From UHGV virus genome UHGV-1545242: a stretch of DNA of 38,625 nt. The stretch is one strand, 5' to 3'. Every line of letters begins with the position of its first letter. Position 1 is the first letter of the stretch. Made by a program: the position numbers and the translations under genes. Origin of the DNA: a virus. The notes beneath the pieces were generated by a model. That model did no database searches. It was not told the origin of the DNA and saw only the letters and a list, made by a program, of their open reading frames with translations. Shown piece by piece: positions 126 through 32,836 of this stretch.

Positions 126-136
126 GGTGACGGTAT
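126..136. promoter_or_regulatory. GGTGACGGTAT 11-mer, candidate integrase arm-type site (left)
   Basis: Identical 11-mer recurs at 38201-38211 near the other prophage end. Confidence 0.35.
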
Positions 137-150
137 TACCTTAAAGGTAT
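136..150. promoter_or_regulatory. TTACC-N5-GGTAT near-palindrome upstream of integrase
   Basis: ttaccttaaaggtat; one mismatch from the TTACC-N5-GGTAA motif. Confidence 0.4.
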
Positions 151-192
151 ACTCTCATACCGTCATGAAAATGGTTTCTATACGGGTGAATT

Positions 193-1449
193 GTGCTTAC
201 CGATACAAAATTAAAAAACCTCAAGCCGCAGGACAAACTGTACAAGGTCTCCGATCGTGACGGGCTGTATGTAGCTGTGCTTACGTCAGGCACGGTCTCG
301 TTTCGCTATGACTACCGTATCAACGGTCGCCGCGAAACACTGGTAATCGGGCAGTATGGGCGTGACGGTATCAGCCTGGCAGAAGCGCGAGAAGAACTGA
401 TTGCTGCAAAGAAGCTGCTTAAAGCAGGCCAGTCACCGGCTGCGGCTAAACGTGACGGTATCAAAAAGATTCGTGGTGCCGAGACGTTTGCGGTACATAC
501 CGACAGTTATATGAAACACGTCATCCTGGCTGACAGTACCCGCGCAATGAAGCAGGCGGTGATCGACCGTGACATACTTCCTGTTCTTGGTAACAAAATG
601 ATGGCTGAAATTACCACATCGATGGTTCGTGATTTGTGTGACCGGATTGTCGAACGCGGTGGTCGGGCAACAGCAGTACAGGCCAGGGAGATCATCAGCA
701 GCGTATACCGTCACGCCAATGACCGTGGTCATGGTTTGTTTAATCCTGCGGCTGACATTAAACCTTCGTCTATCGCCATATTTAAACCACGAGAGCGAAC
801 ACTGACACCAGAAGAAATTGGCCTGTTCTTCCGCACGCTGGATGCCATTGGTGCTATGGGCACTATGAAAATGGCTTTAAAACTGGTGCTTATCACTATG
901 GTTCGTAAGGGCGAATTCACCAATGCAACGTGGGATGAAATAGATTTTAAAAAATGGACATGGACAATTCCTTCAGACCGCATGAAGGGAAGCCGGGCGC
1001 ATGTTATTTACCTGCCTAAACAGGCTCAGGATATATTGGTCGGGTTGCAGATGTGCGCTGGTGGAAGTGAATATCTGGTTCCTGGTCGTTACAATTTCCG
1101 GAAGCCATTATCTAATGCCGCGCTGAACTCTCTGATCGACAGAACGGTGAAAATAATAAATGAAGATGGTGAGCATATTCAGGGCTTCACCGTACACGAT
1201 ATGCGCCGTACAGCCAGTACGTTGTTGCATGAGGCTGGTTATCCTTCAGACTGGATTGAAAAGGCTCTGGCACATGAGCAGAAAGGTGTGCGCGCCGTAT
1301 ATAACAAAGCGGAATACGCCAGACAGCGCGCCTACATGTTGCAGCAGTGGGCCGATATGATTGATTCCTGGATTAACGGGGAGCATACAGATCTGATTCC
1401 GTTCTCCCCGTCGAAGTTTGAGAGGTGGATGGAAGACAGTAATAAATAA
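193..1449 (+). CDS. int: Tyrosine recombinase, P4-type phage integrase
   Basis: 418-aa ORF; N-terminus LTDTKLKNLKPQDKLYKVSDRDGLYVAV typical of P4-family integrases; C-terminal HxxR..Y region (HDMRRTASTLL...VYNKAEY); GTG start at 193. Confidence 0.9.
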   Translation: MLTDTKLKNLKPQDKLYKVSDRDGLYVAVLTSGTVSFRYDYRINGRRETLVIGQYGRDGISLAEAREELIAAKKLLKAGQSPAAAKRDGIKKIRGAETFAVHTDSYMKHVILADSTRAMKQAVIDRDILPVLGNKMMAEITTSMVRDLCDRIVERGGRATAVQAREIISSVYRHANDRGHGLFNPAADIKPSSIAIFKPRERTLTPEEIGLFFRTLDAIGAMGTMKMALKLVLITMVRKGEFTNATWDEIDFKKWTWTIPSDRMKGSRAHVIYLPKQAQDILVGLQMCAGGSEYLVPGRYNFRKPLSNAALNSLIDRTVKIINEDGEHIQGFTVHDMRRTASTLLHEAGYPSDWIEKALAHEQKGVRAVYNKAEYARQRAYMLQQWADMIDSWINGEHTDLIPFSPSKFERWMEDSNK

Positions 1450-1451
1450 TT

Positions 1452-2111
1452 CTATCCTTCCTGGACTTTGGTAAGCGTCAGATTTCCGCAGAACACTGCG
1501 CCGGTGTCGATGTACATTTGGTTTGCATACACCAGTGGGTGATGTGCTGGCGTATGACCGAAGATGAACAAATCGGCACCGGTTATCTCCGAGACAATAC
1601 CGTCCTGCGCGTCGCTAACCCGCTCACGATTCCATATCACCATTTCTTCCGGTACTGGCTTATCGAATGCGTATTCGTTGTGCGGGTAGTCTGCGTGGCA
1701 GATGACGACCTTCTTATTGCCGGTAACCAGTTCGATAATCATCGGGAGGTTGGTAACCTTTGGCAGAAGGTATTTGAGTTGCACATCCTGCTCAGAATCA
1801 AGTTGGTGCCACCATCCACCGCCGTTTGACATCCAATGTCCGAAACTTCCGCCGTTGACCAGTGCATCCAGCATCATCTGCTCATGGTTGCCACGAACAG
1901 CTCGGAACCACGGCATAGTAATCAAATCCAGGCATTCGACGTTTTCAGCGCCGCGGTCAACAAGGTCACCAACGGAAATAAGCAAATCGCGCGCCGGGTC
2001 GAATGAAACTTTGTCGAGTTCGTTCATCAGCAGTGTGTAGCACCCATGCAGATCGCCGACGACGAAGATATTGCACCAGTCAGCGCCATTGATGCGTTGA
2101 TATAGGTTCAT
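1452..2111 (-). CDS. Ser/Thr protein phosphatase, lambda PPase-like metallophosphoesterase
   Basis: Motifs GDLHG, GDLVDRG, GNHE in translated ORF; start taken at MNLYQ, 4-bp overlap with upstream gene stop. Confidence 0.85.
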
Positions 2112-2758
2112 GCTGCACGCTCCCGCCCCTGGTTGTCTGTTGGTGACAGCGGAGCATTGCTGAATGCATTTGTTAATCCGCCAATATCCAACGCGTATCC
2201 AGGATGTAGTTGCACTGCCGGGTCTTCGCACTGATTACCCCAAACATCGAAACCATGAGACGTCTGGCGGGCGAACAGTTCAATGCGAGAAACATCGCCT
2301 AATAATTGCACAAGTTTTTCACGAACGATATCTGGCTTTCTTGAATGCTCAAGCCGCGGTGCGGTAAATGACTGAACGATCCCTGCATTAATGCGCGTAG
2401 GTAGTTTTCCCTTTACCGCAAACAGGCAATCTTCACTATTGGCGCGAGTCATGTGTCCCATACCCATAACCAGTTTATCTGGTTGTCGACTACCACATTT
2501 TATCCACGTGAAGCCCTTCATCGTCATCAGACGGAATCCCCAGGCTTCAACAACTTTTAGTGCTTCGAGTGGTTGTGTTGGCACCCACCACATGGCCAAC
2601 AGACAGTTTTCATCGGCCAAATCCCACACAGGAAGGCGGTAGATATCCAGCACACTCATAACCGGATATTTAAAACCGGCACCGCGATTACCACCTGCGG
2701 CTTTGTCCCGGTATACCCAGGGTGGATCTGCATAGATTAGTGTGTATTTCTTAGTCAT
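2108..2758 (-). CDS. MT-A70 family DNA N6-adenine methyltransferase
   Basis: Catalytic DPPW motif ([10 protein letters not shown]) near N-terminus; start taken at MTKKYT. Confidence 0.75.
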
Positions 2759-3050
2759 AAACCACCCCACAACATCCTATGCCGCTATAGTCGCCACGGC
2801 GAAGGCCGTTAACTTTTGTGATACATTGGTCCCTGCGAACCGCGATCCTTGCACGTTCAACATCACCAGAAGCAACATCCATACACTGAAGCCAAAGGTG
2901 AGCGGCAATGCGGAATTGCCCTTTTTTCTCTCTTTCAATCGCGCGTTTTTCGATCTCTATCGCCGCAGGAGTAACGGCGACAATCTTTGACGGACTGCGC
3001 ATTGAAACCTTATTCATGTGATATTTTTCAAGTCGGCTTAACTTTCTCAC
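2751..3050 (-). CDS. Hypothetical protein, first gene of the hypothetical-methyltransferase-phosphatase operon
   Basis: 99-aa ORF whose stop overlaps the methyltransferase start; no recognisable motif; start uncertain. Confidence 0.4.
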   Translation of the reverse strand: MRKLSRLEKYHMNKVSMRSPSKIVAVTPAAIEIEKRAIEREKKGQFRIAAHLWLQCMDVASGDVERARIAVRRDQCITKVNGLRRGDYSGIGCCGVVYD

Positions 3051-3159
3051 TTAATCCAACCCTCTCTGAAAATTAATGCCAGCAGATAAAGCCATGCTGA
3101 AACAGAGGCCAGGAATAAGTACCATCCTGACCATTTGCTCCAGTGCCTTAGCAGCGCAC

Positions 3160-3408
3160 TCATGCAGCGTTGCTCACGGGACGATATACACGTTGCTGAA
3201 CAGGAGGCTTTTTACCCTGGAACTCTGCCGGGCTTGCTGCCTGACGTTCATCAAGCCAACGCTCAACTTCATCACGGTTCCATGCGCAGCGTTTATCGGT
3301 GATATACCAGCGTTTAGGAAATTCCCCTGCGCGCTCCATACGGTCGATAGTGCTCCATGACAGTGGCACCACCGCCAGGAGTTCTTTCTTACCTAATGCA
3401 CCTTTCAT
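3160..3408 (-). CDS. AlpA-family DNA-binding protein, probable excisionase/regulator
   Basis: Pattern LLAVVPLSWSTIDRMERAGEFPK...WNRDEVERWL matches AlpA/Xis-type winged helix proteins; position between int side and recombination genes. Confidence 0.7.
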   Translation of the reverse strand: MKGALGKKELLAVVPLSWSTIDRMERAGEFPKRWYITDKRCAWNRDEVERWLDERQAASPAEFQGKKPPVQQRVYRPVSNAA

Positions 3409-3457
3409 GAATACCTCTCTTGGTTGCAGTGCGGCGCACGTGGCGCCGCGGTGGTGG

Positions 3458-4480
3458 TTACTCGAATTCTGGACGCATATCGTTAAGCGTCATCATGAAT
3501 TTTTGGTGATATTCATCACCGAGCTTTTCAGCCATGGTGTTAATTTCATTTTCAGCGCGCTTGAACATCGTTTTTGCATCTTCAGCAGATGGATCCAGGC
3601 TATTAAGTATCGCGATGATATATTCTCGAGCTTCTTCTCGTTCTGAATCTGAAATTGGCGACAGGTGTTGACGCTCATCGTCAACTACGGAATATTCACC
3701 AGTGATAACAGCTGCGTTATCTTGGCTAAGTCCAGCTTCAGCGCGCTCATCCATAACAACAGCCTTCTGCATTTCAATAGAAACAGGAAGATATTTGAAC
3801 AGTCGGCGAATTACTGTTTTTTTAGCCATCTCATCGAAGTGATCAACCCATGGGCCACTGCTACCGGCTTTGCTCAGTGCACGAACTTTCTCAACGTCTG
3901 CCCGGCTCATAACTTCAAATTGGACTCCGCCATCTTTCAGTCGTGCAACGGCGTAAACGTGCGTTAATTCTCCGCGGTCACCTGTTTCGCAAGGTAAATG
4001 CTCGAGCGTTTCTTCCAGGCCGTATGAGTAGCTGAATTTGTCGTTTGTATGTACGGTACGAGCCGAGATACTCAGGATCTGCCCAGAGCGGCGGGCAAGG
4101 TCAATCATTCCGCGATAGCCGATAATCAGCTGTGCTTCTGTAGATACGGTTTCCCATCTTCCATTTACTTTCTGGCGTTTGTCGAACGGTATCAGGTAAG
4201 CGTGTCCAAGAGCTCCGCCTGGTTCAAGACCCAATTGGGCACATTGCATAATTGCCCCCAGGAAGCTGGCTTGGTCGCATGATGCAAGTTTTGGAACCTT
4301 TCTGATCTCTGTGGTTGCTATGCGCGCCAGACGGTCTGCTGTCATGTGCTTTGGAAGTGCCAAAGCCATCTGAGCTTTAATTTTTGGGTCTGCCAGAAGT
4401 CCGGCCAGAGTTGTTGGTTTCTCATTATGATGTGCAACTTGGTTACCGGTAGCCGCTGCCTTAAGTGCATTGATAGACAT
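3458..4480 (-). CDS. recT: RecT-family single-strand annealing recombinase
   Basis: LIIGYRGMIDLARRSGQI and VYAVARLKDGG blocks characteristic of RecT (Rac prophage type). Confidence 0.9.
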   Translation of the reverse strand: MSINALKAAATGNQVAHHNEKPTTLAGLLADPKIKAQMALALPKHMTADRLARIATTEIRKVPKLASCDQASFLGAIMQCAQLGLEPGGALGHAYLIPFDKRQKVNGRWETVSTEAQLIIGYRGMIDLARRSGQILSISARTVHTNDKFSYSYGLEETLEHLPCETGDRGELTHVYAVARLKDGGVQFEVMSRADVEKVRALSKAGSSGPWVDHFDEMAKKTVIRRLFKYLPVSIEMQKAVVMDERAEAGLSQDNAAVITGEYSVVDDERQHLSPISDSEREEAREYIIAILNSLDPSAEDAKTMFKRAENEINTMAEKLGDEYHQKFMMTLNDMRPEFE

Positions 4481-4489
4481 TTTTTCTCC

Positions 4490-5368
4490 TTACTTCATTC
4501 TGAAGACGCGTTGTGTCGTTGTTGTTTTGAATTTTTCGAATAACTCAGGGTGTACTGACTGGAATAGCTTCTGGTCGAATCTGTTGCTGATCTGAGATTT
4601 CCATGTGCAGAGCGGCTTTCCGTCCAGGGTCAGGACTGAGTGCTCTTGCATGTACATCTTCAGCTTCTCTTCTGATATAGCTATTTCTTCTTCCAGTGAT
4701 TTTCTGCGTGATTTCATGTCTCGTAGATCGTTGAATAGTGCGAGTGCCTTTCCGTCAGCCTCGATACTTGTCCCGGCATCTTTCTCAAACATCAGCGATA
4801 CATCGCTTACGCTGGTAGCTTCCGGCGGGTTAAGATTTTTCACTCGGTCCCAGAAAGCGATTTCTTTTTCTAAGATCGCCTGGATAGTTTCTTCATCACG
4901 CTCAACCCGATAGATTCGGAAGTCGTCGCCACCGATAAGCACACCGAAAACGCATACCTGTTTGTTTGTAACCATCAACCCGTGCATGGCCTGGGCCGTG
5001 TAATGCACAGGAATTGCATCTGTCTGGATTTCTCCCCATTCTTTGGCTTTGAACGGACTAACTGTTTTGATCTCAATATTCTCGCCTGACGCTGCTTCTG
5101 CATCGATCTCAGCTGCAATAAAATCGTAATCACGGTGGATATAGCGGTTTCCGCGATGAACGATTTCCATCCCTGTTTCCTCAGAAAGCAGGTCTATTAC
5201 GTATGGCTCCATACGCTGGCCACGCGTGAAAACTTTCTGCTTGCTTGGGTCTACTGGTTTGACACGTGGCTGGACCTTATCCAGATAAACCTCAAGCGGG
5301 GTGCGCCATGGGCTAATTCCAAGAATCCCTGCAACATCGCTTCCTCCGATGTATTTTGTTCTATCCAT
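4490..5368 (-). CDS. YqaJ-type (lambda Exo-like) recombination exonuclease
   Basis: N-terminal GGSDVAGILGISPWRTPLEVY motif of YqaJ viral recombinase domain; immediately upstream of recT; start taken at MDRTKY (ORF extends to 5389). Confidence 0.85.
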   Translation of the reverse strand: MDRTKYIGGSDVAGILGISPWRTPLEVYLDKVQPRVKPVDPSKQKVFTRGQRMEPYVIDLLSEETGMEIVHRGNRYIHRDYDFIAAEIDAEAASGENIEIKTVSPFKAKEWGEIQTDAIPVHYTAQAMHGLMVTNKQVCVFGVLIGGDDFRIYRVERDEETIQAILEKEIAFWDRVKNLNPPEATSVSDVSLMFEKDAGTSIEADGKALALFNDLRDMKSRRKSLEEEIAISEEKLKMYMQEHSVLTLDGKPLCTWKSQISNRFDQKLFQSVHPELFEKFKTTTTQRVFRMK

Positions 5369-5385
5369 GATTCCAGCGTTCCGCA

Positions 5386-5685
5386 TCATGCCGCGTCCCT
5401 CTGCCCATCAAGCTGATCCGCCAGATCCCAGCGCGCTATAATTGCCATTGCCTCGCGCCGGTAGGCATCCATCAGTTCTTCGAACTCAGGGCTGTCTTTA
5501 GCAGCCTCCAGCACTTCCTGACGAACGCCTTTGCCTGTTACAACGTCGAAAGTTGAGGACAGTTGATGAAGTCGGATGCTCTCAATCAGTTCAACTTGTC
5601 GGTCATATAGCTGTTCTGACAGGCGGTAGTCCTTGTCGAATGCCAGCATGATTTTTTGAAGATTTTTCTGCTGATTAACGTTCAT
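5386..5685 (-). CDS. Hypothetical early protein
   Basis: ORF with GGGAGGG Shine-Dalgarno 7 nt upstream of MNVNQQ start; no recognised motif. Confidence 0.55.
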   Translation of the reverse strand: MNVNQQKNLQKIMLAFDKDYRLSEQLYDRQVELIESIRLHQLSSTFDVVTGKGVRQEVLEAAKDSPEFEELMDAYRREAMAIIARWDLADQLDGQRDAA

Positions 5686-5687
5686 TA

Positions 5688-5840
5688 TCAGCCCTCCCAT
5701 ATCTCGTTATCGTTGGCTACATCGCGAGCTTCTTTGCTGACGAAAGCCCACTTAATGCCTTCCTGTAAGGTGCGGAACTTCCAGCTCATGAATCCGCATG
5801 CAGTAACGCAGTACCAACCGTTGATGATTTTCCACTGCAT
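5688..5840 (-). CDS. Small Trp-rich protein (49 aa), first gene of leftward early operon
   Basis: Manual translation MQWKIINGWYCVTACGFMSWKFRTLQEGIKWAFVSKEARDVANDNEIWEG; GAGGT SD 8 nt upstream; below 60-aa track cutoff. Confidence 0.45.
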   Translation of the reverse strand: MQWKIINGWYCVTACGFMSWKFRTLQEGIKWAFVSKEARDVANDNEIWEG

Positions 5841-5921
5841 AACTTGTTACCTCGGTCTGTTACTGTTGGGGTAATAATTATGCTTATTTGGTTTGGTGTC
5901 AATAGATATGAGTTAAAAAAA

Positions 5922-5936
5922 TTACCCGTAAGGTAA
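5922..5936. promoter_or_regulatory. Operator-like palindrome TTACC-N5-GGTAA (leftward early promoter region)
   Basis: ttacccgtaaggtaa between repressor terminator and first leftward gene. Confidence 0.6.
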
Positions 5937-5946
5937 TCTATCTGGC

Positions 5947-5971
5947 AATAAAAAAGCCGCCATGAGGCGGC
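5947..5971 (-). terminator. Rho-independent terminator downstream of repressor gene
   Basis: GCCGCC-tcat-GGCGGC followed by T-run on minus strand. Confidence 0.6.
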
Positions 5972-5993
5972 TTACTTACTGAAAACTATAGTT

Positions 5994-6578
5994 TTATTGT
6001 TTGCTTTTTTCGTTCTGGTTGATGACAAATTCAATGTAACTTTCGATCTTTGCTTTCTCGGTTTCGGGTAACAATGCGTAGCGTGAGCGGTCATAGTTGA
6101 TAGTCGCAGGGTCGTGCGGGTGAATCAGTAGTTCATATCCGTGACGCCCGAATGCGGATGCAACATTCTCCAGGGTGGAAATGGAAACGCTGACCTCATT
6201 GTTTAACAGGCGGCTGATTGTCACCTGGGCGACGCCGGATGCGCGGTGAAGTTTTCCCTGCGTTGAAAGGTCGCGGCTTTCGCTCATCCAGCGTTCCAGG
6301 TTGTGAGCCGCCAGCTGACCAATGTCGCTTGGGCCGACAGGCTGAAAACCTTCCTGAGAAAGCGAGCGATCGATATCAAGCCAGTTACGGGGTTTATTGG
6401 CGGCAGCTTCAATTTTTCGCGCAACCTGGTCGCCGATAACCTTCTTGCCAAGAGCCCAGCGGTTTACCAGATTTGCCTGAGTTCCAAGTTTTTCTGCCAT
6501 CCGCGTCTGAACACCATTGAATTCACGGTCGATCAAGTCGTTGAGATTTTGCCTGCGGACGTCCTGGATACTTTTCAT
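5994..6578 (-). CDS. Prophage repressor (CI-like position), HTH DNA-binding protein without S24 peptidase domain
   Basis: Divergent from Cro-like gene; two HTH-like segments (MAEKLGTQANLVNRW; GVAQVTISRLLNNE); no Ala-Gly/Ser-Lys LexA-like autocleavage motifs seen. Confidence 0.7.
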   Translation of the reverse strand: MKSIQDVRRQNLNDLIDREFNGVQTRMAEKLGTQANLVNRWALGKKVIGDQVARKIEAAANKPRNWLDIDRSLSQEGFQPVGPSDIGQLAAHNLERWMSESRDLSTQGKLHRASGVAQVTISRLLNNEVSVSISTLENVASAFGRHGYELLIHPHDPATINYDRSRYALLPETEKAKIESYIEFVINQNEKSKQ

Positions 6579-6633
6579 TTTCTGGAAAATCGCCTCATAT
6601 ATGAATCAGTAGATGATTCAATTTAAAGCAATA

Positions 6634-6648
6634 TTACCCAACAGGTAA
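6634..6648. promoter_or_regulatory. Operator-like palindrome TTACC-N5-GGTAA (repressor/cro intergenic)
   Basis: ttacccaacaggtaa. Confidence 0.6.
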
Positions 6649-6681
6649 ATGCACCTCATAGGTAACCATCCTTGATTTTTG

Positions 6682-6696
6682 TTACCTTATGGGTGA
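6682..6696. promoter_or_regulatory. Operator-like near-palindrome TTACC-N5-GGTGA (repressor/cro intergenic)
   Basis: ttaccttatgggtga, 48 bp from previous site. Confidence 0.5.
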
Positions 6697-6732
6697 ATAT
6701 TTATTATCTGAAATAAATATCAGGCAATAGCT

Positions 6733-6963
6733 ATGAGCGATAACGGACATTTCGATTTCAAAAAGCACTGGCTTGCACTTACTCCGGATGAGCGTGAAGC
6801 CTTCGCACAGGAAGCCGGAACGACGAGTCACTATATCCAGACTCACTTAACAGGTAAGCGCAAAATGCCAGGTAAAGTATTGATGAATGGGCTTTTTAAA
6901 GCCTGTAAAACAAGACAATGGCTGCGCTCAAAAGCAGAACTGGCATACTTCTTCTACTCATGA
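6733..6963 (+). CDS. Cro-like small DNA-binding regulator
   Basis: 76-aa ORF divergent from repressor across operator-containing intergenic region. Confidence 0.6.
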   Translation: MSDNGHFDFKKHWLALTPDEREAFAQEAGTTSHYIQTHLTGKRKMPGKVLMNGLFKACKTRQWLRSKAELAYFFYS

Positions 6964-6985
6964 TATCCAGCTACAACCCTCTGTA

Positions 6986-7010
6986 GACCGCCACCCGGCG
7001 GTCTTTTCAT
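6986..7010 (+). terminator. Rho-independent terminator after cro-like gene (tR1-like)
   Basis: GACCGCC-accc-GGCGGTC followed by TTTTC. Confidence 0.6.
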
Positions 7011-7018
7011 ATCTATTC

Positions 7019-7033
7019 GTACCTCAAAGGTAA
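7019..7033. promoter_or_regulatory. Operator-like near-palindrome GTACC-N5-GGTAA after cro terminator
   Basis: gtacctcaaaggtaa, preceded by atctattcgt. Confidence 0.45.
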
Positions 7034-7113
7034 TAAATAACCAAATCTGGTTGATCTTTTTTTTGTGTCAGCACAAAATGACCGTAATCCCAATACTAAT
7101 AACAGGGCTTACC

Positions 7114-7314
7114 ATGGAAATCATTACACGTATTGATGCCGCAAAGCGCGGACTTAAACGCTACTACACCGGAAAACCATGTAAGCACGGACATGACAGT
7201 GAACGCTGGGTTTACAACGGACACTGTGTTGAGTGCACCATGGAATCAAACCGTCGCATCAGGGCAGAGATTAAGCAGATCATGATTAATTCCTCCCCAC
7301 AACACTCAAGCTGA
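7114..7314 (+). CDS. Small Cys/His-rich protein (possible zinc-binding regulator)
   Basis: CKHGH...HCVEC spacing; start uncertain (ORF opens at 7051). Confidence 0.45.
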   Translation: MEIITRIDAAKRGLKRYYTGKPCKHGHDSERWVYNGHCVECTMESNRRIRAEIKQIMINSSPQHSS

Positions 7315-7329
7315 TAGCGGAGATTAATC

Positions 7330-8163
7330 ATGAGCAGACATGCAACAGATTGGGCCTGGGAGACAGATCCAGGTAGCTCATCATTAAAGCTCATACTGCT
7401 CTCGATGGCTGACAGAGCCGATGAATATAACCTCTGCTACCCCAGCATAGAACGCCTCGTTAAAGACACTTGCCTGAATAAAAAAACCGTGCAGGCCGGG
7501 CTTATATCGCTCATGAAAATGGGGCTTATTTCAGATACCGGAGAGAGAAAGGGAGCGACAAAAAGAGTGCGGGTTTTCTCTCTTAATATAACCAAAAACG
7601 GGAACATTAAAGGCAACCGGGAGGGGGGCAATGAACCCGAAAACGGTAATGTTACCGAAAACGGGAATATACCCAAAAACGGGATGTTGAATGATCCCAA
7701 AAACGGGATGTTGAATGATCCCAAAAACGGGATCCAGAACCAGTCATATAACCAGTCATTTAACCAAGAGAGGGAGAGCAGGACAAAAACCGGGGATTCT
7801 GTGCCTCATGACCCCGGCGCAAACAACGCCGTGATGAATAACTTTGTTCCTCCTGGTGGGCCAGGGCAATTAGGTAAATTTGTCATGCATGAACAATGGC
7901 AGCCATCAGATGACTTTCTTCGGAAAAGCTCATTGCAGGGAATCTACCTGGACAGTCTGCCAACGGCACAGGAACTTGCAGAGTTCAGAATTTACTGGAT
8001 GGCTGAGGGTAAGGCATACCATCAGGCACAGTGGGAGCAGAAGCTGGCAAGGCGCATCCAGTTCTGTAGACAGAAATCAGGTGAAGTCAGAAAGAGCCTT
8101 GACTGGCATAACACTGACTGGATAGATGAGGTGTGGGATGAAATCAACTCCAGAACTTCTTAA
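7330..8163 (+). CDS. Replication initiator (lambda O-like / replisome organiser) with internal origin iterons
   Basis: N-terminal HTH region (WETDPGSSSLKLILLSMADRADEYNLCYPSIERL), followed by iteron-encoded repeats and a C-terminal domain preceding the P-like gene. Confidence 0.75.
   Translation: MSRHATDWAWETDPGSSSLKLILLSMADRADEYNLCYPSIERLVKDTCLNKKTVQAGLISLMKMGLISDTGERKGATKRVRVFSLNITKNGNIKGNREGGNEPENGNVTENGNIPKNGMLNDPKNGMLNDPKNGIQNQSYNQSFNQERESRTKTGDSVPHDPGANNAVMNNFVPPGGPGQLGKFVMHEQWQPSDDFLRKSSLQGIYLDSLPTAQELAEFRIYWMAEGKAYHQAQWEQKLARRIQFCRQKSGEVRKSLDWHNTDWIDEVWDEINSRTS
7592..7732. repeat. Iteron array, candidate replication origin inside the initiator gene
   Basis: Six copies of CC(C/G)AAAACGGGA at 7592, 7636, 7655, 7672, 7696, 7720 including a perfect 24-bp tandem CCCAAAAACGGGATGTTGAATGAT; followed by AT-richer direct repeat cagtcatataacc/cagtcatttaacc. 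Confidence 0.65.
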
Positions 8164-8920
8164 TGAGTACGATCGCTTTCGTGGTGGGCATGACCACTCG
8201 ACGGCGGTTGCTTCTGCTGACGATGAAAGGGCAAAGAAGGAGCAGGTTGCAAGAATTTTCAACGAAATGTTTGTCCAGTTACAGGCTGCATTTCCAGGCA
8301 GCATCGCTGCTATCAGCGAGCAAGGAAAGCTAAACGAATTTCGAAAACAATGGATGCTTGCGTTTCTGGAGAATGGGATCACAACAATGGAACAGGTTAA
8401 CGCTGGTATGCGCCACGCCCGCGCCAGTGAATCTCCGTTCTGGCCGTCGCCAGGGCAATTTATCAAGTGGTGTAAAGACAGCAAGATGGTTCTTGGCGTC
8501 ACCATTGACGATGTGATGGCGGAGTTTCACCGGTACAGCAAGGAAAAAAGTTTATATCCTGGTGGTCCCGAAAGATTCCCGTGGCGACATCCGGTTATGT
8601 ACTGGGTCGTATGTGATACCCGCCGTGCAATGTATCAGCGCCAGCTTAGCGAGATTGAGGTTGAGAAACACGCGCGCAGGCTGCTCGATGATTGGGCGAA
8701 AAAGGTGGCTTCCGGACAGCAGATACCCGATCCGGTGATCAGCATACAGGCAAAGCCAGAACCCATGAGTACACCTCCGGACACAGGGAGAGACGTTTAC
8801 CATCCACCAGGGCGAAGTTTCGGGTGCATGCCTAACGCCGCCACCCTTGGGGGAATAACACCGGCGCAGTGGCTGATGGAGGAATACAGGCGGGGAAAGG
8901 CGGCAGGATTTATCAAGTAA
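8138..8920 (+). CDS. Replication protein P-like (DnaB helicase loader)
   Basis: Block EFRKQWMLAFLENGITTMEQVNAGMRHAR...PFWPSPGQFIKWC closely parallels lambda P central region as I recall it. Confidence 0.85.
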   Translation: MKSTPELLNEYDRFRGGHDHSTAVASADDERAKKEQVARIFNEMFVQLQAAFPGSIAAISEQGKLNEFRKQWMLAFLENGITTMEQVNAGMRHARASESPFWPSPGQFIKWCKDSKMVLGVTIDDVMAEFHRYSKEKSLYPGGPERFPWRHPVMYWVVCDTRRAMYQRQLSEIEVEKHARRLLDDWAKKVASGQQIPDPVISIQAKPEPMSTPPDTGRDVYHPPGRSFGCMPNAATLGGITPAQWLMEEYRRGKAAGFIK

Positions 8921-8957
8921 TACCAGCGCGATAGCGCATTTTTTTACGTCTCGATGA

Positions 8958-8972
8958 TTACCTGCTGGGTAA
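8958..8972. promoter_or_regulatory. Operator-like palindrome TTACC-N5-GGTAA downstream of P-like gene
   Basis: ttacctgctgggtaa. Confidence 0.55.
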
Positions 8973-9019
8973 TAAAATATTCTAAAATCTATTGATTTAG
9001 TGTCTTATGTGGTTTTTAA

Positions 9020-9034
9020 TTACCTCAGGGGTAA
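9020..9034. promoter_or_regulatory. Operator-like palindrome TTACC-N5-GGTAA overlapping RBS of frameshifted gene
   Basis: ttacctcaggggtaa, 62 bp from previous site, AT-rich promoter-like DNA between. Confidence 0.55.
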
Positions 9035-9037
9035 ATC

Positions 9038-9381
9038 ATGAGAAAACAGATACAGGCTCTTGGTCGACTCAAAACAGGCCAGATGAACAAAACAGAATCT
9101 GCGTATTGCCAGCACCTTGAGCAGCGTAAACGTGCAGGGGAAACGCCTGGTATCGGTTCGAGGGTATCAAGCTGCGGTTAGCTGATAACACGTTTTATAC
9201 GCCAGATTTCGCTGTGATGCTCGCCACCGGCGAGATGGAACTGCACGAAGTGAAAGGTTTCTGGACCGACGACGCCAGGGTGAAAACCAAAGTCGCCGCA
9301 GATCAGTATCCGTTCCGAATCATCGGGGTAACGGTTAAGCCAAAGAAAGCAGGTGGTGGCTGGAACATCGAAGAGTTCTGA
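9038..9381 (+). pseudogene. Frameshifted gene (recalled as DUF1064 family); reading frame broken near 9150-9180
   Basis: ATG at 9038 reads 47 codons to TAG at 9179; a second frame is open from ~9146 to TGA 9379 (WYRFEGIKLRLADNTFYTPDF...); total 344 nt, not a multiple of 3. Confidence 0.5.
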
Positions 9382-9442
9382 ATCGACGATCTTTTTAGTT
9401 ATCAATGTAATCAATAAGTTATGTGGATAAGCGAGGGTAAAG

Positions 9443-9880
9443 ATGGAAAGTAATATCAAAGGGTTAGTTTCCGCCGGGCATGAGATGGCTTCGGAACTGA
9501 AAGCAGAATGTGGTGCCGTTGATATGCGCAGTGTGGCAAAGCTGATCAGCGATTTGGCAACGCAACTGGAAGTGCAACTGGTGCGTGCTAATGCGCTGGC
9601 GGCGGAGAATGCGCTGGCTCGTAAAGCAGTTCAGGCATTTTGCGATGTTGTTGGCGACAGCACCGAGGTTATCTGCGAGGAGATTGGGCGAGATGGCGTT
9701 CTGGTTATTTTGGAGGCAATGAAGGCAACAGGAAATATGCCAGCCACCGATGCTTTCCTGTCTGAAGTGCGGGCGCAGGGGGTAGAGATGATGCGCGAAC
9801 ATCCAGCAATCAAACTTTGTTGTTTGACGCACATATGTGATGAGTTAGCCGCCCAGCTTCGCAAAGGAGGCAACCAGTGA
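9443..9880 (+). CDS. Hypothetical nin-region protein
   Basis: 145-aa ORF, stop overlaps next start. Confidence 0.55.
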   Translation: MESNIKGLVSAGHEMASELKAECGAVDMRSVAKLISDLATQLEVQLVRANALAAENALARKAVQAFCDVVGDSTEVICEEIGRDGVLVILEAMKATGNMPATDAFLSEVRAQGVEMMREHPAIKLCCLTHICDELAAQLRKGGNQ

Positions 9881-10563: not shown

Positions 10564-10564
10564 G

Positions 10565-10933: not shown

Positions 10934-10934
10934 T

Positions 10935-11755: not shown

Positions 11756-11792
11756 TGGCTAACCTGCAACTTGCCGTCAAAGGTGAAAAGAT

Positions 11793-11981: not shown

Positions 11982-12038
11982 GAGAATCTCCGCACATCGG
12001 CAACACACAGCTAAATATGTTCGCGATAAAGGTAAATA

Positions 12039-12610: not shown

Positions 12611-13281
12611 ATACTGCCGCCAACTATGGTGGCTTTATTTTGCATGGTACTATTACCACAACGGTAACTATTACCACGGTGGTTATGATGCCTGCTGAAC
12701 CTAAAACCTATAAACGCAAATCAACGCAATTTAAGCCACTAACAGCAATGCAGGAGGCTTATTGCCAGTCATACATCAAAACGCCTGAAAACCAGACTCA
12801 GGCAGCGATTAACGCAGGATTCTCCCCAAATACAGCGGCAGTTAAAGCCAGTGTCATGATGCGCGACGAACGCATTCAAAAACGGATTGCCGAGTTGATG
12901 GAGGAGCGCAACAAACGAATGCGCGTCAGTGCTGATTACGTTCTCATGCGCCTGGTGGAGATCGACCAGATGGACGTGATTGATATCCTCAACGACGATG
13001 GGAGCCTTAAGCCAATCCGCGAGTGGCCGAAAATCTGGCGCACTACGCTTAGCGGCTTTGATCTGTCATCGACCATCATGAACATGAACGAGGATTCGAT
13101 AGAGACAATCCTCAAAAAAATTAAATGGCCTGACAAGGTGAAGAACCTCGAACTGATTGGTAAGCACGTCGACGTCAACGCATTCAAAGAACGCCTGGAT
13201 GTTAATGTGAATGTGACAATTGCTGATCGCATAGCAGCAGCCAGGAAGCGACTCAAAGAACGTCAGGATGGTAATCAGTGA
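12607..13281 (+). CDS. Terminase small subunit
   Basis: Segment AMQEAYCQSYIKTPENQTQAAINAGFSPNTAAVKASVMMRDERIQKRIAEL matches the Terminase_2 small-subunit pattern; start may be internal (MMPAEP at ~12685). Confidence 0.75.
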   Translation: MNTAANYGGFILHGTITTTVTITTVVMMPAEPKTYKRKSTQFKPLTAMQEAYCQSYIKTPENQTQAAINAGFSPNTAAVKASVMMRDERIQKRIAELMEERNKRMRVSADYVLMRLVEIDQMDVIDILNDDGSLKPIREWPKIWRTTLSGFDLSSTIMNMNEDSIETILKKIKWPDKVKNLELIGKHVDVNAFKERLDVNVNVTIADRIAAARKRLKERQDGNQ

Positions 13282-14753: not shown

Positions 14754-14803
14754 TCCGCTGGTGGGGATAATGTCGTTGATATCCTCTGGTGAGGATAAAA
14801 CAA

Positions 14804-14830: not shown

Positions 14831-14843
14831 ACATGTCACGGTG

Positions 14844-15176: not shown

Positions 15177-15187
15177 GATTTTCACCT

Positions 15188-15774: not shown

Positions 15775-15789
15775 TTACCTGAAAGGTAA
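15775..15789. promoter_or_regulatory. Operator-like palindrome TTACC-N5-GGTAA upstream of portal/late operon
   Basis: ttacctgaaaggtaa, identical to site at 32822. Confidence 0.55.
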
Positions 15790-15879
15790 TAATTCGCGCG
15801 TTAAATGTCAACTGTCTACGATAAATAAATCATATGTGGTTAAATTGGTAATAATTTAATTGCGTACGGAGTCATTGAT

Positions 15880-31873: not shown

Positions 31874-31999
31874 ATGATGGTTCAAATAACTTTTATTGTA
31901 CTAATATGTGCAGCGTTTTTATGCTATTCATACATTTTGATAAAAATGGGTTTCAATTGGAACCTCTGTTGCGTGCAGCGGCATGGTTCGGCTTTGTAG
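31874..31999 (+). CDS. Small hydrophobic membrane peptide (41 aa), moron
   Basis: AAGGAG SD then ATGATG; manual translation MMVQITFIVLICAAFLCYSYILIKMGFNWNLCCVQRHGSAL; AT-rich context. Confidence 0.35.
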   Translation: MMVQITFIVLICAAFLCYSYILIKMGFNWNLCCVQRHGSAL

Positions 32000-32084
32000 T
32001 ATTCGGAATTGTATTGTTCGGAAGAATAATAAAATAACTAGTTAATTTGTGGATTGGTGCTGTTTTTCCATGATAGGGGTAATT

Positions 32085-32465
32085 ATGAGAAAAGTATTTT
32101 TGATTTTTGGATTTATGCTTCTCGTTGGATGCCAGTCAGCTGCACAGTTTGAAAGAAATATGCTTACGTGGCGCGGGCAGAGTATAGACGCAATGGTTCA
32201 GCAGTGGGGGTATCCTCAGGGAGAGCTTACATCTCCAGATGGAAACAGAGTGTATGTTTACTCAAGCTCTGGTAGTTATAACGTACCACAAACCACAACG
32301 TATAATACTACGTCTAATCTAATTGGTAATACTATATATTCAAACACATACGCAACAACTGATGGCGGTTATACACTCCATTTCAGTTGCTCTGTTTACG
32401 TTGAGTTTGGTGCTGATAAGATTATTAAAAATGTTACATGGCGCGGTAATAATTGCGTTGCGTGA
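32085..32465 (+). CDS. Outer-membrane lipoprotein (moron), candidate superinfection-exclusion factor
   Basis: Signal peptide with lipobox MRKVFLIFGFMLLVGC, +2 residue Gln; Thr/Ser/Tyr/Asn-rich mature part with two C-terminal Cys; AT-rich. Confidence 0.65.
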   Translation: MRKVFLIFGFMLLVGCQSAAQFERNMLTWRGQSIDAMVQQWGYPQGELTSPDGNRVYVYSSSGSYNVPQTTTYNTTSNLIGNTIYSNTYATTDGGYTLHFSCSVYVEFGADKIIKNVTWRGNNCVA

Positions 32466-32473
32466 CATGTCAC

Positions 32474-32496
32474 AGGCCGCTTTCGCGGCCTTTAAA
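32474..32496 (+). terminator. Terminator hairpin between convergent moron genes
   Basis: AGGCCGC-tttc-GCGGCCT followed by TTTAAATTT. Confidence 0.55.
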
Positions 32497-32497
32497 T

Positions 32498-32755
32498 TTA
32501 CCGGGTTTGTTTTCGTAATTGTTCGGCACAATAGTCGAGATGTGTTTGCAGATCCTGCATAGACATCTGTGAGCTGGTGACGTAGTTAATCAATGCAGTC
32601 AGTTCGGCAAGTGGGCCATCGACATTAAATCCATCCTTATCGAGATCCCGGAGTAATTTCATCAAGTGCGATCCCTCCACCAGTGACCTGACGCCTCCCG
32701 GCGTGTGAATCCTTTCGGTAAATCCGTCTTCCAGTGGATAGTGATACTGCTGCAT
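32498..32755 (-). CDS. Hypothetical 85-aa protein, convergent to lipoprotein and divergent from tailspike
   Basis: Minus-strand ORF open in AT-rich DNA; ATG at 32755 preceded by GGAGAAG; ORF track shows a longer 126-aa extension. Confidence 0.5.
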   Translation of the reverse strand: MQQYHYPLEDGFTERIHTPGGVRSLVEGSHLMKLLRDLDKDGFNVDGPLAELTALINYVTSSQMSMQDLQTHLDYCAEQLRKQTR

Positions 32756-32821
32756 CTTATCTTCTCCATGCAATAACTGTATATTTATACAGTAGCAAAT
32801 AATTTGTTTGCTATCCAGCAC

Positions 32822-32836
32822 GTTTTGCAAATTACC
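32822..32836. promoter_or_regulatory. Operator-like palindrome TTACC-N5-GGTAA in divergent region upstream of tailspike
   Basis: ttacctgaaaggtaa; followed by atctattcgta, also seen at 7011-7021. Confidence 0.55.

What the first reader, a model, noticed from the sequence alone, without database searches (positions are those of the whole stretch)
136..32836. One 15-bp palindrome (TTACC-N5-GGTAA) marks nine or more promoter regions spread across the entire prophage
Perfect or one-mismatch copies sit at 136, 5922, 6634, 6682, 7019, 8958, 9020, 15775 and 32822, all intergenic. Lambda- and P22-type repressors classically act only at two clustered operators flanking the immunity gene, but here the same palindrome also sits before the integrase, before the nin-like block (a pair 62 bp apart bracketing an AT-rich promoter), before the portal/late operon and before the tailspike. 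The repressor at 5994-6578 has two HTH-like segments and no LexA-like S24 domain. This suggests a single regulator gating early, middle, late and tailspike promoters directly.
Basis: partly seen in the sequence, partly recalled or inferred. Interest (0 to 1): 0.8.

Follow-up and report, generated by a model that had tools for sequence, protein, structure and literature searches.

The report
Repressor operators scattered across ε15-like prophage
The repeated palindrome is real and is the binding site of this ε15/phiV10-type prophage's repressor, placed at the start of almost every transcription unit, but the same sites are already annotated in the ε15 reference genome, so the finding is a correct rediscovery.

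Summary
TTACC-N5-GGTAA occurs 7 times perfectly (0.01 expected) and 12 times with up to one mismatch (0.58 expected). All 12 copies lie in the 7.7% of the window that is non-coding. One coordinate was wrong (32822 should be 32832) and three copies were missed (5860, 12653, 12671).

The window is a complete phiV10/ε15-like (Uetakevirus) prophage of E. coli. The same palindrome is the most frequent inverted repeat in seven genomes of the genus. In the ε15 RefSeq record it is already annotated as "repressor" binding sites before the terminase, portal and tail-fibre genes and the nin-like block.

The repressor is a full-length homologue of SPC32H Rep (PDB 5D50). It lacks a protease domain because it is inactivated by the antirepressor Ant. 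Ant is encoded at 32498-32755 behind a perfect LexA box.

Two unrelated phages whose cI proteins share only Rep's N-terminal domain carry TACC-N4/5-GGTA only beside cI. So the half-site goes with that domain, and the dispersal is specific to Uetakeviruses.

Direct gating is well supported for PL, PR, the nin promoter and Pint, and is unproven for the portal and tailspike operons.

I also found a second dispersed palindrome (AACCATATATGGTT) next to most operators. Its binding protein is unknown.

Verdict: already known, with modest interest.

The parts
136..150 (.). Rep operator at the integrase promoter (TTACCTTAAAGGTAT). Its variant right arm GGTAT runs into a -10-like TATACT at 147-152. The int start codon is at 193.
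   Evidence: The same one-mismatch variant (GGTAT) is kept upstream of int in all 7 genomes.
5860..5874 (.). OL promoter-proximal operator (TTACTGTTGGGGTAA), abutting the -10 of PL and centred near +1.
   Evidence: alignment A5.
5874..5902 (-). PL, the early-left promoter: TTGACA-17-AATTAT. It is the best sigma-70 match in 1-16200.
   Evidence: 10 of 12 matches. The -35 and -10 are invariant in 7 genomes.
5922..5936 (.). OL distal operator, 62 bp centre to centre from 5860 (about -62). It lies directly downstream of the rep terminator (5954-5973, minus strand).
   Evidence: The spacing is 62 bp in 6 of 7 genomes and 63 bp in the seventh.
5994..6578 (-). Rep, the prophage repressor (194 aa). 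In its SPC32H homologue the layout is an N-terminal DNA-binding domain, a middle dimerisation domain and a C-terminal tetramerisation/Ant-binding domain; the Pfam HTH_3 match at 106-147 falls in the middle region.
   Evidence: PDB 5D50_A, E = 3.5e-42 over residues 1-190. Pfam. Domain roles from PMC9986798. A near-identical protein was shown to block lytic growth in phage ZX5 (PMC9782041).
6634..6648 (.). OR-a operator, perfect. It overlaps the putative leftward rep promoter.
   Evidence: Present in 79 of 79 related loci.
6651..6665 (.). OR-b operator (GCACCTCATAGGTAA, 2 mismatches), 17 bp from OR-a.
   Evidence: It aligns with the perfect site at ε15 33358.
6682..6696 (.). OR-c operator, lying in the spacer of PR. 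The invariant -35 TTGATT is at 6671-6676.
   Evidence: Present in 79 of 79 related loci.
6733..6963 (+). Cro-like protein, the only gene of the PR transcript before the terminator at 6985-7004. It probably shares the Rep operators.
   Evidence: phrog_35. Homologous to the Cro-position protein of phage pOW20-A, whose operators are TACC-N5-GGTA.
7019..7033 (.). Post-cro operator (GTACCTCAAAGGTAA), just after a terminator and upstream of the promoter TTGATC(7051)-17-CAAAAT(7079) for the replication genes.
   Evidence: The module is conserved in 7 genomes.
8958..8972 (.). Upstream operator of the nin-block promoter (about -62), directly after a terminator-like hairpin.
8992..9020 (+). Pnin promoter: TTGATT-17-TTTAAT, sandwiched between two operators.
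   Evidence: Read from the sequence. The hexamers are conserved in 7 genomes.
9020..9034 (.). Downstream operator of Pnin (about +1). It also holds the ribosome-binding site of the gene that starts at 9038. It is 62 bp from 8958.
   Evidence: The spacing is exactly 62 bp in 7 of 7 genomes.
12653..12667 (.). First operator before the small terminase gene, 19 bp after the terminator at 12616-12633.
   Evidence: The equivalent site is annotated in ε15 at 12-27.
12671..12685 (.). Second operator before the small terminase gene (TTACCACGGTGGTTA). It ends 2 nt before the terS start codon at 12688.
15775..15789 (.). Operator in the divergent region between the leftward accessory (moron) genes and the portal operon.
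   Evidence: The equivalent site is annotated in ε15 at 2931-2947.
32498..32755 (-). Ant, the antirepressor (85 aa).
   Evidence: PDB 5D50_E, E = 2.7e-46. Start codon placed.
32777..32792 (.). LexA box CTGTATATTTATACAG, overlapping the -10 of the ant promoter.
   Evidence: Conserved in 7 genomes.
32832..32846 (.). Operator between ant and the tailspike gene, centred about -62 from the ant promoter's -10.
   Evidence: The equivalent site is annotated in ε15 at 19895-19911.
7039..7052 (.). Second palindrome ('pal2'), AACCAAATCTGGTT, overlapping the -35 of the post-cro promoter (centre about -41.5).
9001..9014 (.). pal2 copy in the spacer of Pnin (centre about -19.5).
15828..15841 (.). pal2 copy before the portal operon, inside a 28-nt block that is invariant in 7 genomes. 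An operator half-site GGTAAT follows at 15847-15852.
32873..32886 (.). pal2 copy before the tailspike gene, followed by the invariant GGTAATAGAAT and an inverted copy at 32903-32913.
36303..36316 (.). pal2 copy before the lysis cassette, followed by a -10-like TACTAT. There is no Rep operator here in this prophage.

Best explanation
The 15-bp palindrome (full form A-TTACC-N5-GGTAA-T) is the operator of the prophage repressor Rep (5994-6578), and most likely also of the Cro-like protein (6733-6963). The window is a whole phiV10/ε15-type prophage that uses the SPC32H-type immunity system. In that system Rep is a tetramer with N-terminal DNA-binding domains. It is not cleaved during the SOS response. 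Instead it is pulled off DNA by the antirepressor Ant, whose own promoter is held shut by host LexA. The genome is split into short transcription units, most of them preceded by a terminator, and no Q-type antiterminator is annotated in the relatives' records. Each unit therefore carries its own Rep operators, 13 sites in 8 regulatory regions. At PL and at the nin-block promoter, two operators exactly 62 bp apart (about six helical turns) bracket a sigma-70 promoter, one near -62 and one over +1. At PR an operator fills the promoter spacer. At Pint the operator overlaps the -10. Single operators sit near -62 at the post-cro and ant promoters and in the portal-side divergent region. Shown here: the enrichment, the intergenic placement, the conservation of half-sites and spacing, the homology of Rep and Ant to solved proteins, and the link between the half-site and the Rep N-terminal domain. 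Inferred: that Rep occupies every site, that the 62-bp pairs are bridged by one tetramer, and that single sites repress on their own.
For: Enrichment: 7 perfect against 0.01 expected, 12 against 0.58. All 12 are non-coding, P about 4e-14. The palindrome ranks first among inverted repeats in seven Uetakevirus genomes. ε15 RefSeq annotates the same motif as 'protein_bind: repressor' at seven sites, including those before terS, the portal operon, the tail fibre and the nin-like block. Rep matches SPC32H Rep (PDB 5D50_A, E = 3.5e-42) and Ant matches 5D50_E (E = 2.7e-46). There is a perfect LexA box that is conserved. Independent linkage: phage PseuP_224 has a cI-S24 repressor with a Rep-like N-terminal domain and four TTACC-N4-GGTAA sites, all flanking cI, against 0.29 expected. 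Phage pOW20-A has four TACC-N5-GGTA sites in its whole genome, all flanking cI, against 0.21 expected. The Rep N-terminal motif NLVNRW is invariant even though overall identity is only 43%. Across 157 distinct sites the arms are invariant and the N5 spacer carries 0.04-0.56 bits. The strongest sigma-70 match in 1-16200, PL, lies between two operators. The 62-bp spacing holds in 13 of 14 pairs. Literature: Rep binds DNA as a tetramer and Ant breaks the tetramer (PMC9638917). The domain layout and the Rco looping analogue come from PMC9986798. A near-identical repressor cut lysis-gene transcription by more than 99.9% when overexpressed (PMC9782041).
Against: No binding experiment on these particular sites could be read. 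The primary SPC32H and ε15 papers are not held, so the ε15 annotation has to be treated as a prediction. A protein centred at -62 does not obviously block a promoter on its own. The lysis cassette of this prophage, of PAS61 and of BUCT711 has no operator, so operator-independent silencing of at least one late unit must exist. Promoters before terS, the portal operon and the tailspike gene could not be identified with confidence.
Confidence: 0.8

Rival explanations
1. The portal-side (15775) and tailspike-side (32832) operators do not control the late operons. They control the divergent leftward promoters, ant and the accessory genes. The late operons would then be silent in the lysogen because they need a phage-made positive factor acting at the second palindrome.
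For: Site 32832 is centred about -62 from the -10 (TATAAA, inside the LexA box) of the ant promoter. That is the geometry of the upstream operators at PL and Pnin. A conserved TTGACA on the minus strand (15811-15806) lies 16 nt from operator 15775, and the scan finds a minus-strand promoter that abuts it. The lysis operon has pal2 but no operator in the window, PAS61 and BUCT711. PAS61 was isolated as a phage. The putative late promoters have poor -35 hexamers.
Against: The spacing from each operator to the rightward elements (pal2, GGTAATAGAAT) also shows no insertions or deletions in 7 genomes. An operator half-site GGTAAT lies exactly one 62-bp step downstream of 15775, over the putative portal -10. 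ε15, SPC32H, phiV10 and Tyrion do keep an operator before the lysis genes.
Confidence: 0.35
2. Outside the immunity region, the sites act mainly as roadblocks that stop transcription leaking in from upstream units, in the manner of mycobacteriophage stoperators, and not as promoter-occluding operators.
For: Four sites or pairs lie 12-20 bp downstream of an intrinsic terminator: 5922, 7019, 8958 and 12653. The terS pair leaves no room for a promoter before the start codon. Stoperators are an established precedent (PMC9283540).
Against: The sites are palindromic and lie at unit boundaries, not inside operons. At PL, Pnin, PR and Pint they overlap core promoter elements.
Confidence: 0.25
3. The palindrome is bound mainly by another phage regulator, such as the Cro-like protein or the 12039-12380 protein, and not by Rep.
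For: The Cro-like protein has a homologue in phage pOW20-A, which uses TACC-N5-GGTA operators. The 12039-12380 protein has a predicted strand-helix-helix pattern like a ribbon-helix-helix DNA-binding domain, plus a cysteine cluster.
Against: PseuP_224 shares only the Rep N-terminal domain and still has the TTACC..GGTAA operators; the Cro-like search did not return it. A Yersinia P2-like phage with a homologue of the 12039-12380 protein showed no enrichment of the second palindrome, but it was not scanned for TTACC-N5-GGTAA, so this protein is not excluded by that genome. Shared use by Cro and Rep is the classical arrangement and does not displace Rep.
Confidence: 0.08
4. The repeats are structural hairpins or binding sites for a host factor.
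For: They are inverted repeats that could form a 5-7 bp stem.
Against: Predicted stability is only -1.7 to -4.8 kcal/mol. The arms are invariant while the loop drifts freely. The motif follows the repressor domain into Pseudomonas and Psychrobacter phages.
Confidence: 0.02

Closest known systems
Repressor-binding sites annotated in Salmonella phage ε15 (NC_004775; Kropinski et al. 2007, paper not readable here)
   Same: Same 17-bp palindrome ATTACC-N5-GGTAAT at the same genome positions: before terS, the portal operon, the tail fibre and the nin-like block, and left of the repressor gene.
   Different: The ε15 record lists 7 sites. It omits the OR cluster, the int site, the lysis site and the second member of each pair, all of which the sequence contains. 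The window's Rep is only 43% identical to ε15's.
SPC32H Rep-Ant-LexA lytic switch (PDB 5D50/5D4Z; Kim & Ryu 2013, Kim et al. 2016; read only through PMC9638917 and PMC9986798)
   Same: Full-length Rep homologue, Ant homologue at E = 2.7e-46, a LexA box on the ant promoter, and no S24 domain. SPC32H carries the same dispersed palindrome.
   Different: The region beyond the N-terminal domain (residues 89-190, aligned to the 5D4Z fragment) is clearly more diverged than the N-terminal domain, while Ant aligns closely. Whether the published work mapped the dispersed sites could not be checked.
Mycobacteriophage L5 / Cluster A repressor and its stoperators
   Same: One immunity repressor with many binding sites spread over the phage genome, silencing more than the early promoters (PMC9283540).
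   Different: Stoperators are asymmetric and bound by a monomer (PMC9283540). From memory, they are also orientation-dependent, lie within operons and number about 24-30 or more. Here there are 13 palindromic sites at unit boundaries, and Rep acts as a tetramer.
Phage P1 C1 repressor (from memory; only indirectly seen)
   Same: A single repressor with more than a dozen operators dispersed over the genome, inactivated by an antirepressor (Coi/Ant).
   Different: P1 operators are asymmetric 17-mers. P1 late genes depend on the C1-controlled activator Lpa and not on operators at each late promoter.
Lambda CI at OL/OR, and plasmid pLS20 Rco
   Same: Clustered operators flank the repressor gene (three at OR, two at OL). 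A tetramerisation domain is associated with DNA looping between operators about 75 bp apart in Rco (PMC9986798).
   Different: There is no S24 autocleavage. Additional operators lie far from the immunity region. The pairs have a fixed 62-bp spacing that brackets single promoters.

Membership tests
SPC32H/ε15-type Rep-Ant immunity system | Repressor homologous to SPC32H Rep over its full length | tested here: met
   PDB 5D50_A, E = 3.5e-42, residues 1-190. 43% identity by tblastn.
SPC32H/ε15-type Rep-Ant immunity system | Small antirepressor Ant encoded divergently from the tailspike gene | tested here: met
   Window 32498-32755 (minus strand) matches 5D50_E at E = 2.7e-46.
SPC32H/ε15-type Rep-Ant immunity system | LexA box overlapping the ant promoter | tested here: met
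   CTGTATATTTATACAG at 32777-32792, conserved in 7 genomes.
SPC32H/ε15-type Rep-Ant immunity system | Repressor lacks a RecA-dependent autocleavage (S24) domain | tested here: met
   Pfam finds only HTH families. NCBIfam agrees.
SPC32H/ε15-type Rep-Ant immunity system | ATTACC-N5-GGTAAT operators at the positions annotated in ε15 | tested here: met
   and alignments.
SPC32H/ε15-type Rep-Ant immunity system | Rep physically binds the operators and is released by Ant | not testable with these tools
   Only secondary literature is available. Indirect support comes from co-occurrence of the Rep N-terminal domain with the half-site in PseuP_224 and pOW20-A.
Stoperator-type silencing (mycobacteriophage Cluster A) | Numerous repressor sites distributed across the genome | tested here: met
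   13 sites in 8 regions spanning 136-32846.
Stoperator-type silencing (mycobacteriophage Cluster A) | Asymmetric site read by a monomeric repressor | tested here: not met
   The sites are perfect palindromes. Rep acts as a tetramer (PMC9638917).
Stoperator-type silencing (mycobacteriophage Cluster A) | Sites block elongating RNA polymerase | not testable with these tools
   Four sites follow terminators within 12-20 bp. This is compatible with a roadblock role but does not show it.
Lambda/P22-type CI repressor | C-terminal S24 peptidase domain | tested here: not met
Lambda/P22-type CI repressor | Operators confined to OL and OR | tested here: not met
   Seven of the 13 sites lie outside the immunity region. 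The S24-type relatives PseuP_224 and pOW20-A do meet this feature.

The most novel reading that the evidence does not exclude
The dispersed sites are not lone operators. They are bipartite control cassettes. In all seven genomes a second palindrome (consensus AACCATATATGGTT) lies at fixed distances from the Rep operator that differ by roughly whole helical turns: 23, 44-47 or 56 bp. It is centred about -41.5 at the post-cro promoter and about -19.5 at the nin and lysis promoters. It is present before the lysis genes even where the Rep operator is absent. This would mean that an undescribed second regulator sets middle and late expression genus-wide, with Rep as an overlay. Candidates are the 12039-12380 protein (which sits where Q sits in lambdoid phages and may be a ribbon-helix-helix plus cysteine-cluster protein), the Cro-like protein, and the PerC-like activator. 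I could not check whether the ε15 or SPC32H papers already describe this element. It is not annotated in any of the records I read.
Probability: 0.45. Interest if true: 0.5.

Novelty: already known. Interest (0 to 1): 0.27.

Why it matters
It matters little as a discovery. The motif, its dispersal and the repressor/antirepressor switch are already on public record for ε15 and SPC32H. The analysis is still useful in three ways. First, it carries the ε15 annotation over to the very common phiV10-type E. coli prophages; a scan of viral contigs found at least 324 relatives of the repressor gene. Second, it shows by comparison with S24-type relatives that spreading operators over the genome is a derived trait of a phage group in which no Q-type antiterminator is annotated. 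Third, it gives testable geometry: 62-bp operator pairs bracketing promoters, which suits the tetrameric, looping-type Rep whose repression mechanism is described as not extensively characterised (PMC9986798). The second palindrome is the only part that might be new biology.

Tried and rejected
(1) I tried to read the primary papers (ε15 genome PMC2698709; SPC32H PMC3807360 and PMC4983836 / doi 10.1073/pnas.1602618113). None is held, so statements about them rest on the GenBank annotation and on citing papers.

(2) I looked for distant Rep relatives in viral contigs to test co-variation between the recognition helix and the operator. The scan returned only 99-100% identical loci. I used them only for population-level conservation. 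The co-variation question was partly answered through PseuP_224 and pOW20-A instead.

(3) Hairpin or terminator reading of the palindrome: rejected, because the stems are weak and the loops are not conserved.

(4) The idea that TATGTGGTT is a degenerate Rep operator or a DnaA, IHF or other host-factor site: no convincing match by eye, so I dropped it.

(5) The idea that the AlpA-family protein (3160-3408) is a Q-like antiterminator loading at pal2: the P. aeruginosa AlpA has its helix-turn-helix at residues 128-142 (PMC9371919), whereas the window protein is only 82 aa. I kept only the analogy of position, a DNA element between -35 and -10.

(6) Structure prediction of the 12039-12380 protein gave pLDDT 58.5. 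That is too low for a meaningful fold search, so none was run. PDB, Pfam and NCBIfam gave nothing.

(7) A Yersinia P2-like phage with a homologue of that protein shows no pal2 enrichment. This is uninformative at 42% identity.

(8) Confident sigma-70 promoters for terS, the portal operon and the tailspike gene could not be found.

Full report
OBSERVATION. The pattern TTACC-N5-GGTAA occurs 7 times without mismatch, at 5922, 6634, 8958, 9020, 12653, 15775 and 32832, where 0.01 is expected. It occurs 12 times with at most one mismatch, adding 136, 5860, 6682, 7019 and 12671, where 0.58 is expected. I built a gene map from the ORF list and from the annotation of close relatives. On that map 7.7% of the window is non-coding and all 12 sites are fully non-coding (P about 4e-14). 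Of the 24 two-mismatch matches, 22 are coding, so they behave as background. The exceptions are 6651, which aligns with a perfect operator of ε15, and 12544. In an unbiased count of every inverted repeat with 5-nt arms and a gap of 0-10, this palindrome ranks first in the window.

WHAT THE WINDOW IS. The window is about 97% identical in mosaic blocks to the Uetakeviruses vB_EcoP_PAS61, phiv142-3, TL-2011b and phiV10. The attachment core ATTGAGTGGGAATGATT reported for this phage group (PMC9782041) occurs once, at 38285. The left copy would fall at the window's first bases. The window is therefore one complete prophage. Its order is int, early-left genes, rep, cro-like, replication genes, nin-like block, terminase, accessory genes, portal to tail genes, ant, tailspike, lysis genes.

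THE SAME MOTIF IS ALREADY ANNOTATED. The RefSeq record of phage ε15 carries seven 'protein_bind, repressor, lysogeny' features. Their sequences are ATTACC-N5-GGTAAT. They lie before the small terminase gene, before the gp3/portal operon, before the tail-fibre gene, before the Holliday-junction-resolvase (nin-like) block, and three lie to the left of the repressor gene. The palindrome is the top inverted repeat in all seven genomes examined: window 7 perfect copies, PAS61 8, phiV10 8, Tyrion 9, ε15 11, SPC32H 10 and Klebsiella phage BUCT711 9. The slots are conserved across genomes. Every genome has an int site, always with the same GGTAT variant, and every genome has OL, OR, nin-pair, portal and ant/tailspike sites. 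The terS pair was seen in five genomes; SPC32H shows only the first site at up to one mismatch, and the BUCT711 record is split at that junction, so it could not be scored there. Five genomes have the post-cro site at up to one mismatch. Four have a lysis-cassette site. Three carry an extra site in front of genes inserted downstream of ant.

WHO BINDS IT. The protein at 5994-6578 matches the repressor of Salmonella phage SPC32H over its whole length (PDB 5D50_A, E = 3.5e-42). The ORF at 32498-32878 contains, from its internal Met at 32755, an 85-aa homologue of the SPC32H antirepressor Ant (5D50_E, E = 2.7e-46). A perfect LexA box (32777-32792) lies just upstream of it and is conserved in all seven genomes. 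According to papers that cite the primary work, Rep binds palindromic DNA as a tetramer and the Ant tetramer breaks it into dimers (PMC9638917). Rep consists of an N-terminal DNA-binding domain, a middle dimerisation domain and a C-terminal tetramerisation/Ant-binding domain of a type linked to DNA looping (PMC9986798). The Pfam HTH_3 match at 106-147 falls by position in that middle region, so I infer it corresponds to the dimerisation domain; the cited paper gives the domain order but not residue boundaries. The S24 domain is absent because induction goes through LexA and Ant. A near-identical repressor in phage ZX5 abolished free-phage production and cut holin and endolysin transcripts by more than 99.9% when overexpressed. 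That study mapped no operators (PMC9782041).

INDEPENDENT LINK BETWEEN THE DOMAIN AND THE HALF-SITE. A tblastn search with Rep found Pseudomonas phage PseuP_224, a lambda-like siphovirus whose cI has an S24-type C-terminus and shares only Rep's N-terminal domain. Its 43-kb genome has four TTACC-N4-GGTAA sites at up to one mismatch (0.29 expected). All four flank cI. Psychrobacter phage pOW20-A has a CI-like repressor whose N-terminus resembles Rep's (38% over 71 aa, E = 1e-10). It also has a Cro-position protein resembling the window's 6733-6963 protein (48% over 40 aa, E = 1e-14). Its whole 40.8-kb genome holds four TACC-N5-GGTA sites (0.21 expected), all flanking cI. So the TACC..GGTA half-site travels with this repressor domain across unrelated phage backbones. 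Both of those phages are annotated with Q-like antiterminators and both keep the sites at OL and OR only. No Q-like gene is annotated in the Uetakevirus records I read. Dispersal is therefore a derived Uetakevirus trait. Within the genus, Rep is only 43-45% identical between host groups, yet the N-terminal motif NLVNRW is invariant. That fits the invariant half-site. Across the seven genomes and 79 related viral contigs there are 157 distinct perfect-arm sites. The flanking A and T are favoured, and the N5 spacer carries only 0.04-0.56 bits per position. This is the signature of a protein-binding site. As hairpins the sites are weak, at -1.7 to -4.8 kcal/mol.

ANATOMY AND LIKELY MECHANISM. The strongest sigma-70 match in 1-16200 is PL on the minus strand (TTGACA 5902-5897, 17 nt, AATTAT 5879-5874). 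It lies between operators 5922 and 5860, whose centres are 62 bp apart. That places them at about -62 and +1. The nin-block promoter has the same build: operator 8958, 19 nt, TTGATT, 17 nt, TTTAAT, operator 9020, then the start codon at 9038. Both cassettes are conserved element by element in seven genomes. The spacing is exactly 62 bp in 13 of 14 pairs and 63 bp in the last. Sixty-two base pairs is about six helical turns. This is what one would expect if one Rep tetramer holds both operators and wraps the promoter, as the related Rco does over 75 bp. That step is inferred.

OR has three operators (6634, 6651, 6682). The third lies in the spacer of PR behind an invariant TTGATT. At Pint the operator's variant arm GGTAT runs into a -10-like TATACT. 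That may be why the 'mismatch' is conserved in every genome. Four sites or pairs (5922, 7019, 8958, 12653) sit 12-20 bp after intrinsic terminators. The genome is therefore cut into insulated units, each with its own operator. The terS pair ends 2 nt before the start codon. That leaves no room for a promoter and suggests a roadblock role at that position.

WHERE THE INTERPRETATION OVERREACHES. Sites 15775 and 32832 lie in divergent intergenic regions. Site 32832 is centred about -62 from the -10 (inside the LexA box) of the leftward ant promoter, the same geometry as the upstream operators at PL and Pnin. A conserved minus-strand TTGACA lies 16 nt from 15775, and the scan reports a minus-strand promoter abutting that operator. 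Either site could therefore serve the leftward gene instead of, or in addition to, the late operon. I found no convincing sigma-70 promoter for terS, the portal operon or the tailspike gene. In this prophage, in PAS61 and in BUCT711 the lysis cassette has no operator within two mismatches. PAS61 was isolated as a phage from an E. coli host, so at least one late unit stays silent without Rep at its promoter. 'Direct gating' is well supported for PL, PR, Pnin and Pint. It is plausible for the post-cro promoter. It is open for terS, portal and tailspike.

A SECOND DISPERSED PALINDROME. Downstream of several operators I noticed TATGTGGTT. Its three exact copies are all on the plus strand, 31-43 bp after an operator. 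In its full form it is a 14-bp palindrome, AACCATATATGGTT. It is perfect before the lysis genes of phiV10 and Tyrion. CCATATNTGGTT with up to one mismatch occurs 7 times in the window against 0.78 expected, 10 times in Tyrion against 0.63, and 4 times in ε15 against 0.60. In each case 0 of 100 shuffles reached the observed count. With the looser pattern CATATNTGGTT, 8 of 11 window hits lie in non-coding DNA, and 7 of those 8 lie within 75 bp of a Rep operator; the eighth is the lysis copy at 36306, where the window has no operator. The distance from operator start to the motif core is conserved: 23 bp at OL and post-cro, 44-47 bp at nin, tailspike, lysis and the genes after ant, and 56 bp at portal. 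These steps differ by about one or two helical turns. The element is centred about -41.5 at the post-cro promoter, where it overlaps the -35 TTGATC. It is centred about -19.5 in the spacers of Pnin and, in the E. coli and Enterobacter genomes, of PL, and before the lysis genes, where a -10-like hexamer follows it directly. Before the portal operon it is part of a 28-nt block invariant in seven genomes.

None of the records annotates this element, and its binding protein is unknown. The 12039-12380 protein sits where Q sits in lambdoid phages. It has an invariant cysteine cluster and a predicted strand-helix-helix pattern like a ribbon-helix-helix domain, but the model is of low confidence (pLDDT 58.5). 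The position of the element between -35 and -10 recalls the binding elements of Q and of P. aeruginosa AlpA (PMC7969949, PMC9371919). The window's AlpA-family protein is too small to be of that kind. This is the only part of the locus that may be new.

COMPARISON WITH KNOWN SYSTEMS AND VERDICT. The locus meets every sequence-level criterion of the SPC32H/ε15 Rep-Ant system. It works somewhat like the dispersed-operator systems of mycobacteriophage L5 (stoperators; PMC9283540) and, from memory, phage P1 C1. It fails the defining stoperator features, which are an asymmetric site and a monomeric repressor. It is not a lambda-type CI system, since it has no S24 domain and its operators are not confined to OL and OR. 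Its interpretation is partly supported. The phenomenon is already on record. Interest is modest (0.27), carried mainly by the conserved 62-bp promoter sandwich and by the second palindrome.

Noticed in passing
window 7039-7052, 9001-9014, 15828-15841, 32873-32886, 32903-32913 (minus strand), 36303-36316, and weakly 5883-5893: A second dispersed palindrome (consensus AACCATATATGGTT) lies at fixed distances from the Rep operators, differing by about whole helical turns. It is enriched (7 against 0.78 expected) and conserved in seven genomes. It is not annotated in any record, and its binding protein is unknown.
   Followed up: partly
window 32498-32755 (minus strand) and 32777-32792: A homologue of the SPC32H antirepressor Ant lies behind a perfect LexA box. 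It explains why the repressor has no autocleavage domain.
   Followed up: yes
window 36071-36376: The region before the lysis cassette lacks the Rep operator that ε15, SPC32H, phiV10 and Tyrion have there. Unlike PAS61 and SPC32H, the window has no O-antigen acetylase gene between the tailspike and lysis genes, so this module has been exchanged.
   Followed up: partly
window 9038-9381: The first gene after the nin-block promoter is a DUF1064-family gene by homology with phiV10 and BUCT711. It is split by a frameshift after about 35-47 codons, so it is either a pseudogene or a sequencing error.
   Followed up: partly
window 7584-7736: Six iteron-like direct repeats (core CCCAAAAACGGGA, spaced 18-45 bp, mostly 18-24) lie inside the replication-initiator gene 7330-8163. 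They probably mark the phage replication origin, as in lambda O.
   Followed up: partly
window 47-70 and 38326-38353: Nearly identical terminator-like hairpins (AACCCTCTGT...ACAGAGGGTT plus a T-run) lie at both ends of the prophage. The right one is just outside the attR core at 38285. This suggests the phage carries a copy of the host terminator that it displaces on integration.
   Followed up: no
L087 (Pseudomonas phage PseuP_224) 10906-11820; L090 (Psychrobacter phage pOW20-A) 8762-9706: Two unrelated temperate phages have S24-type or CI-like repressors with a Rep-like N-terminal domain. They use TTACC-N4-GGTAA and ATACC-N5-GGTAT operators, found only beside cI. Together with the Uetakeviruses they define a wider repressor/Cro/operator module family.
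   Followed up: partly
phiV10 (L003) 20497; Tyrion (L005) 21393; BUCT711 (L006) 17377: Accessory genes inserted downstream of ant, such as a Bro-N antirepressor-like gene, each come with their own Rep operator plus a pal2 copy. The operator/pal2 cassette seems to move as a plug-in control unit.
   Followed up: no
window 15847-15852: An operator half-site GGTAAT lies exactly one 62-bp step downstream of operator 15775, over the putative portal -10. It is invariant in seven genomes and may be a weak second operator.
   Followed up: no
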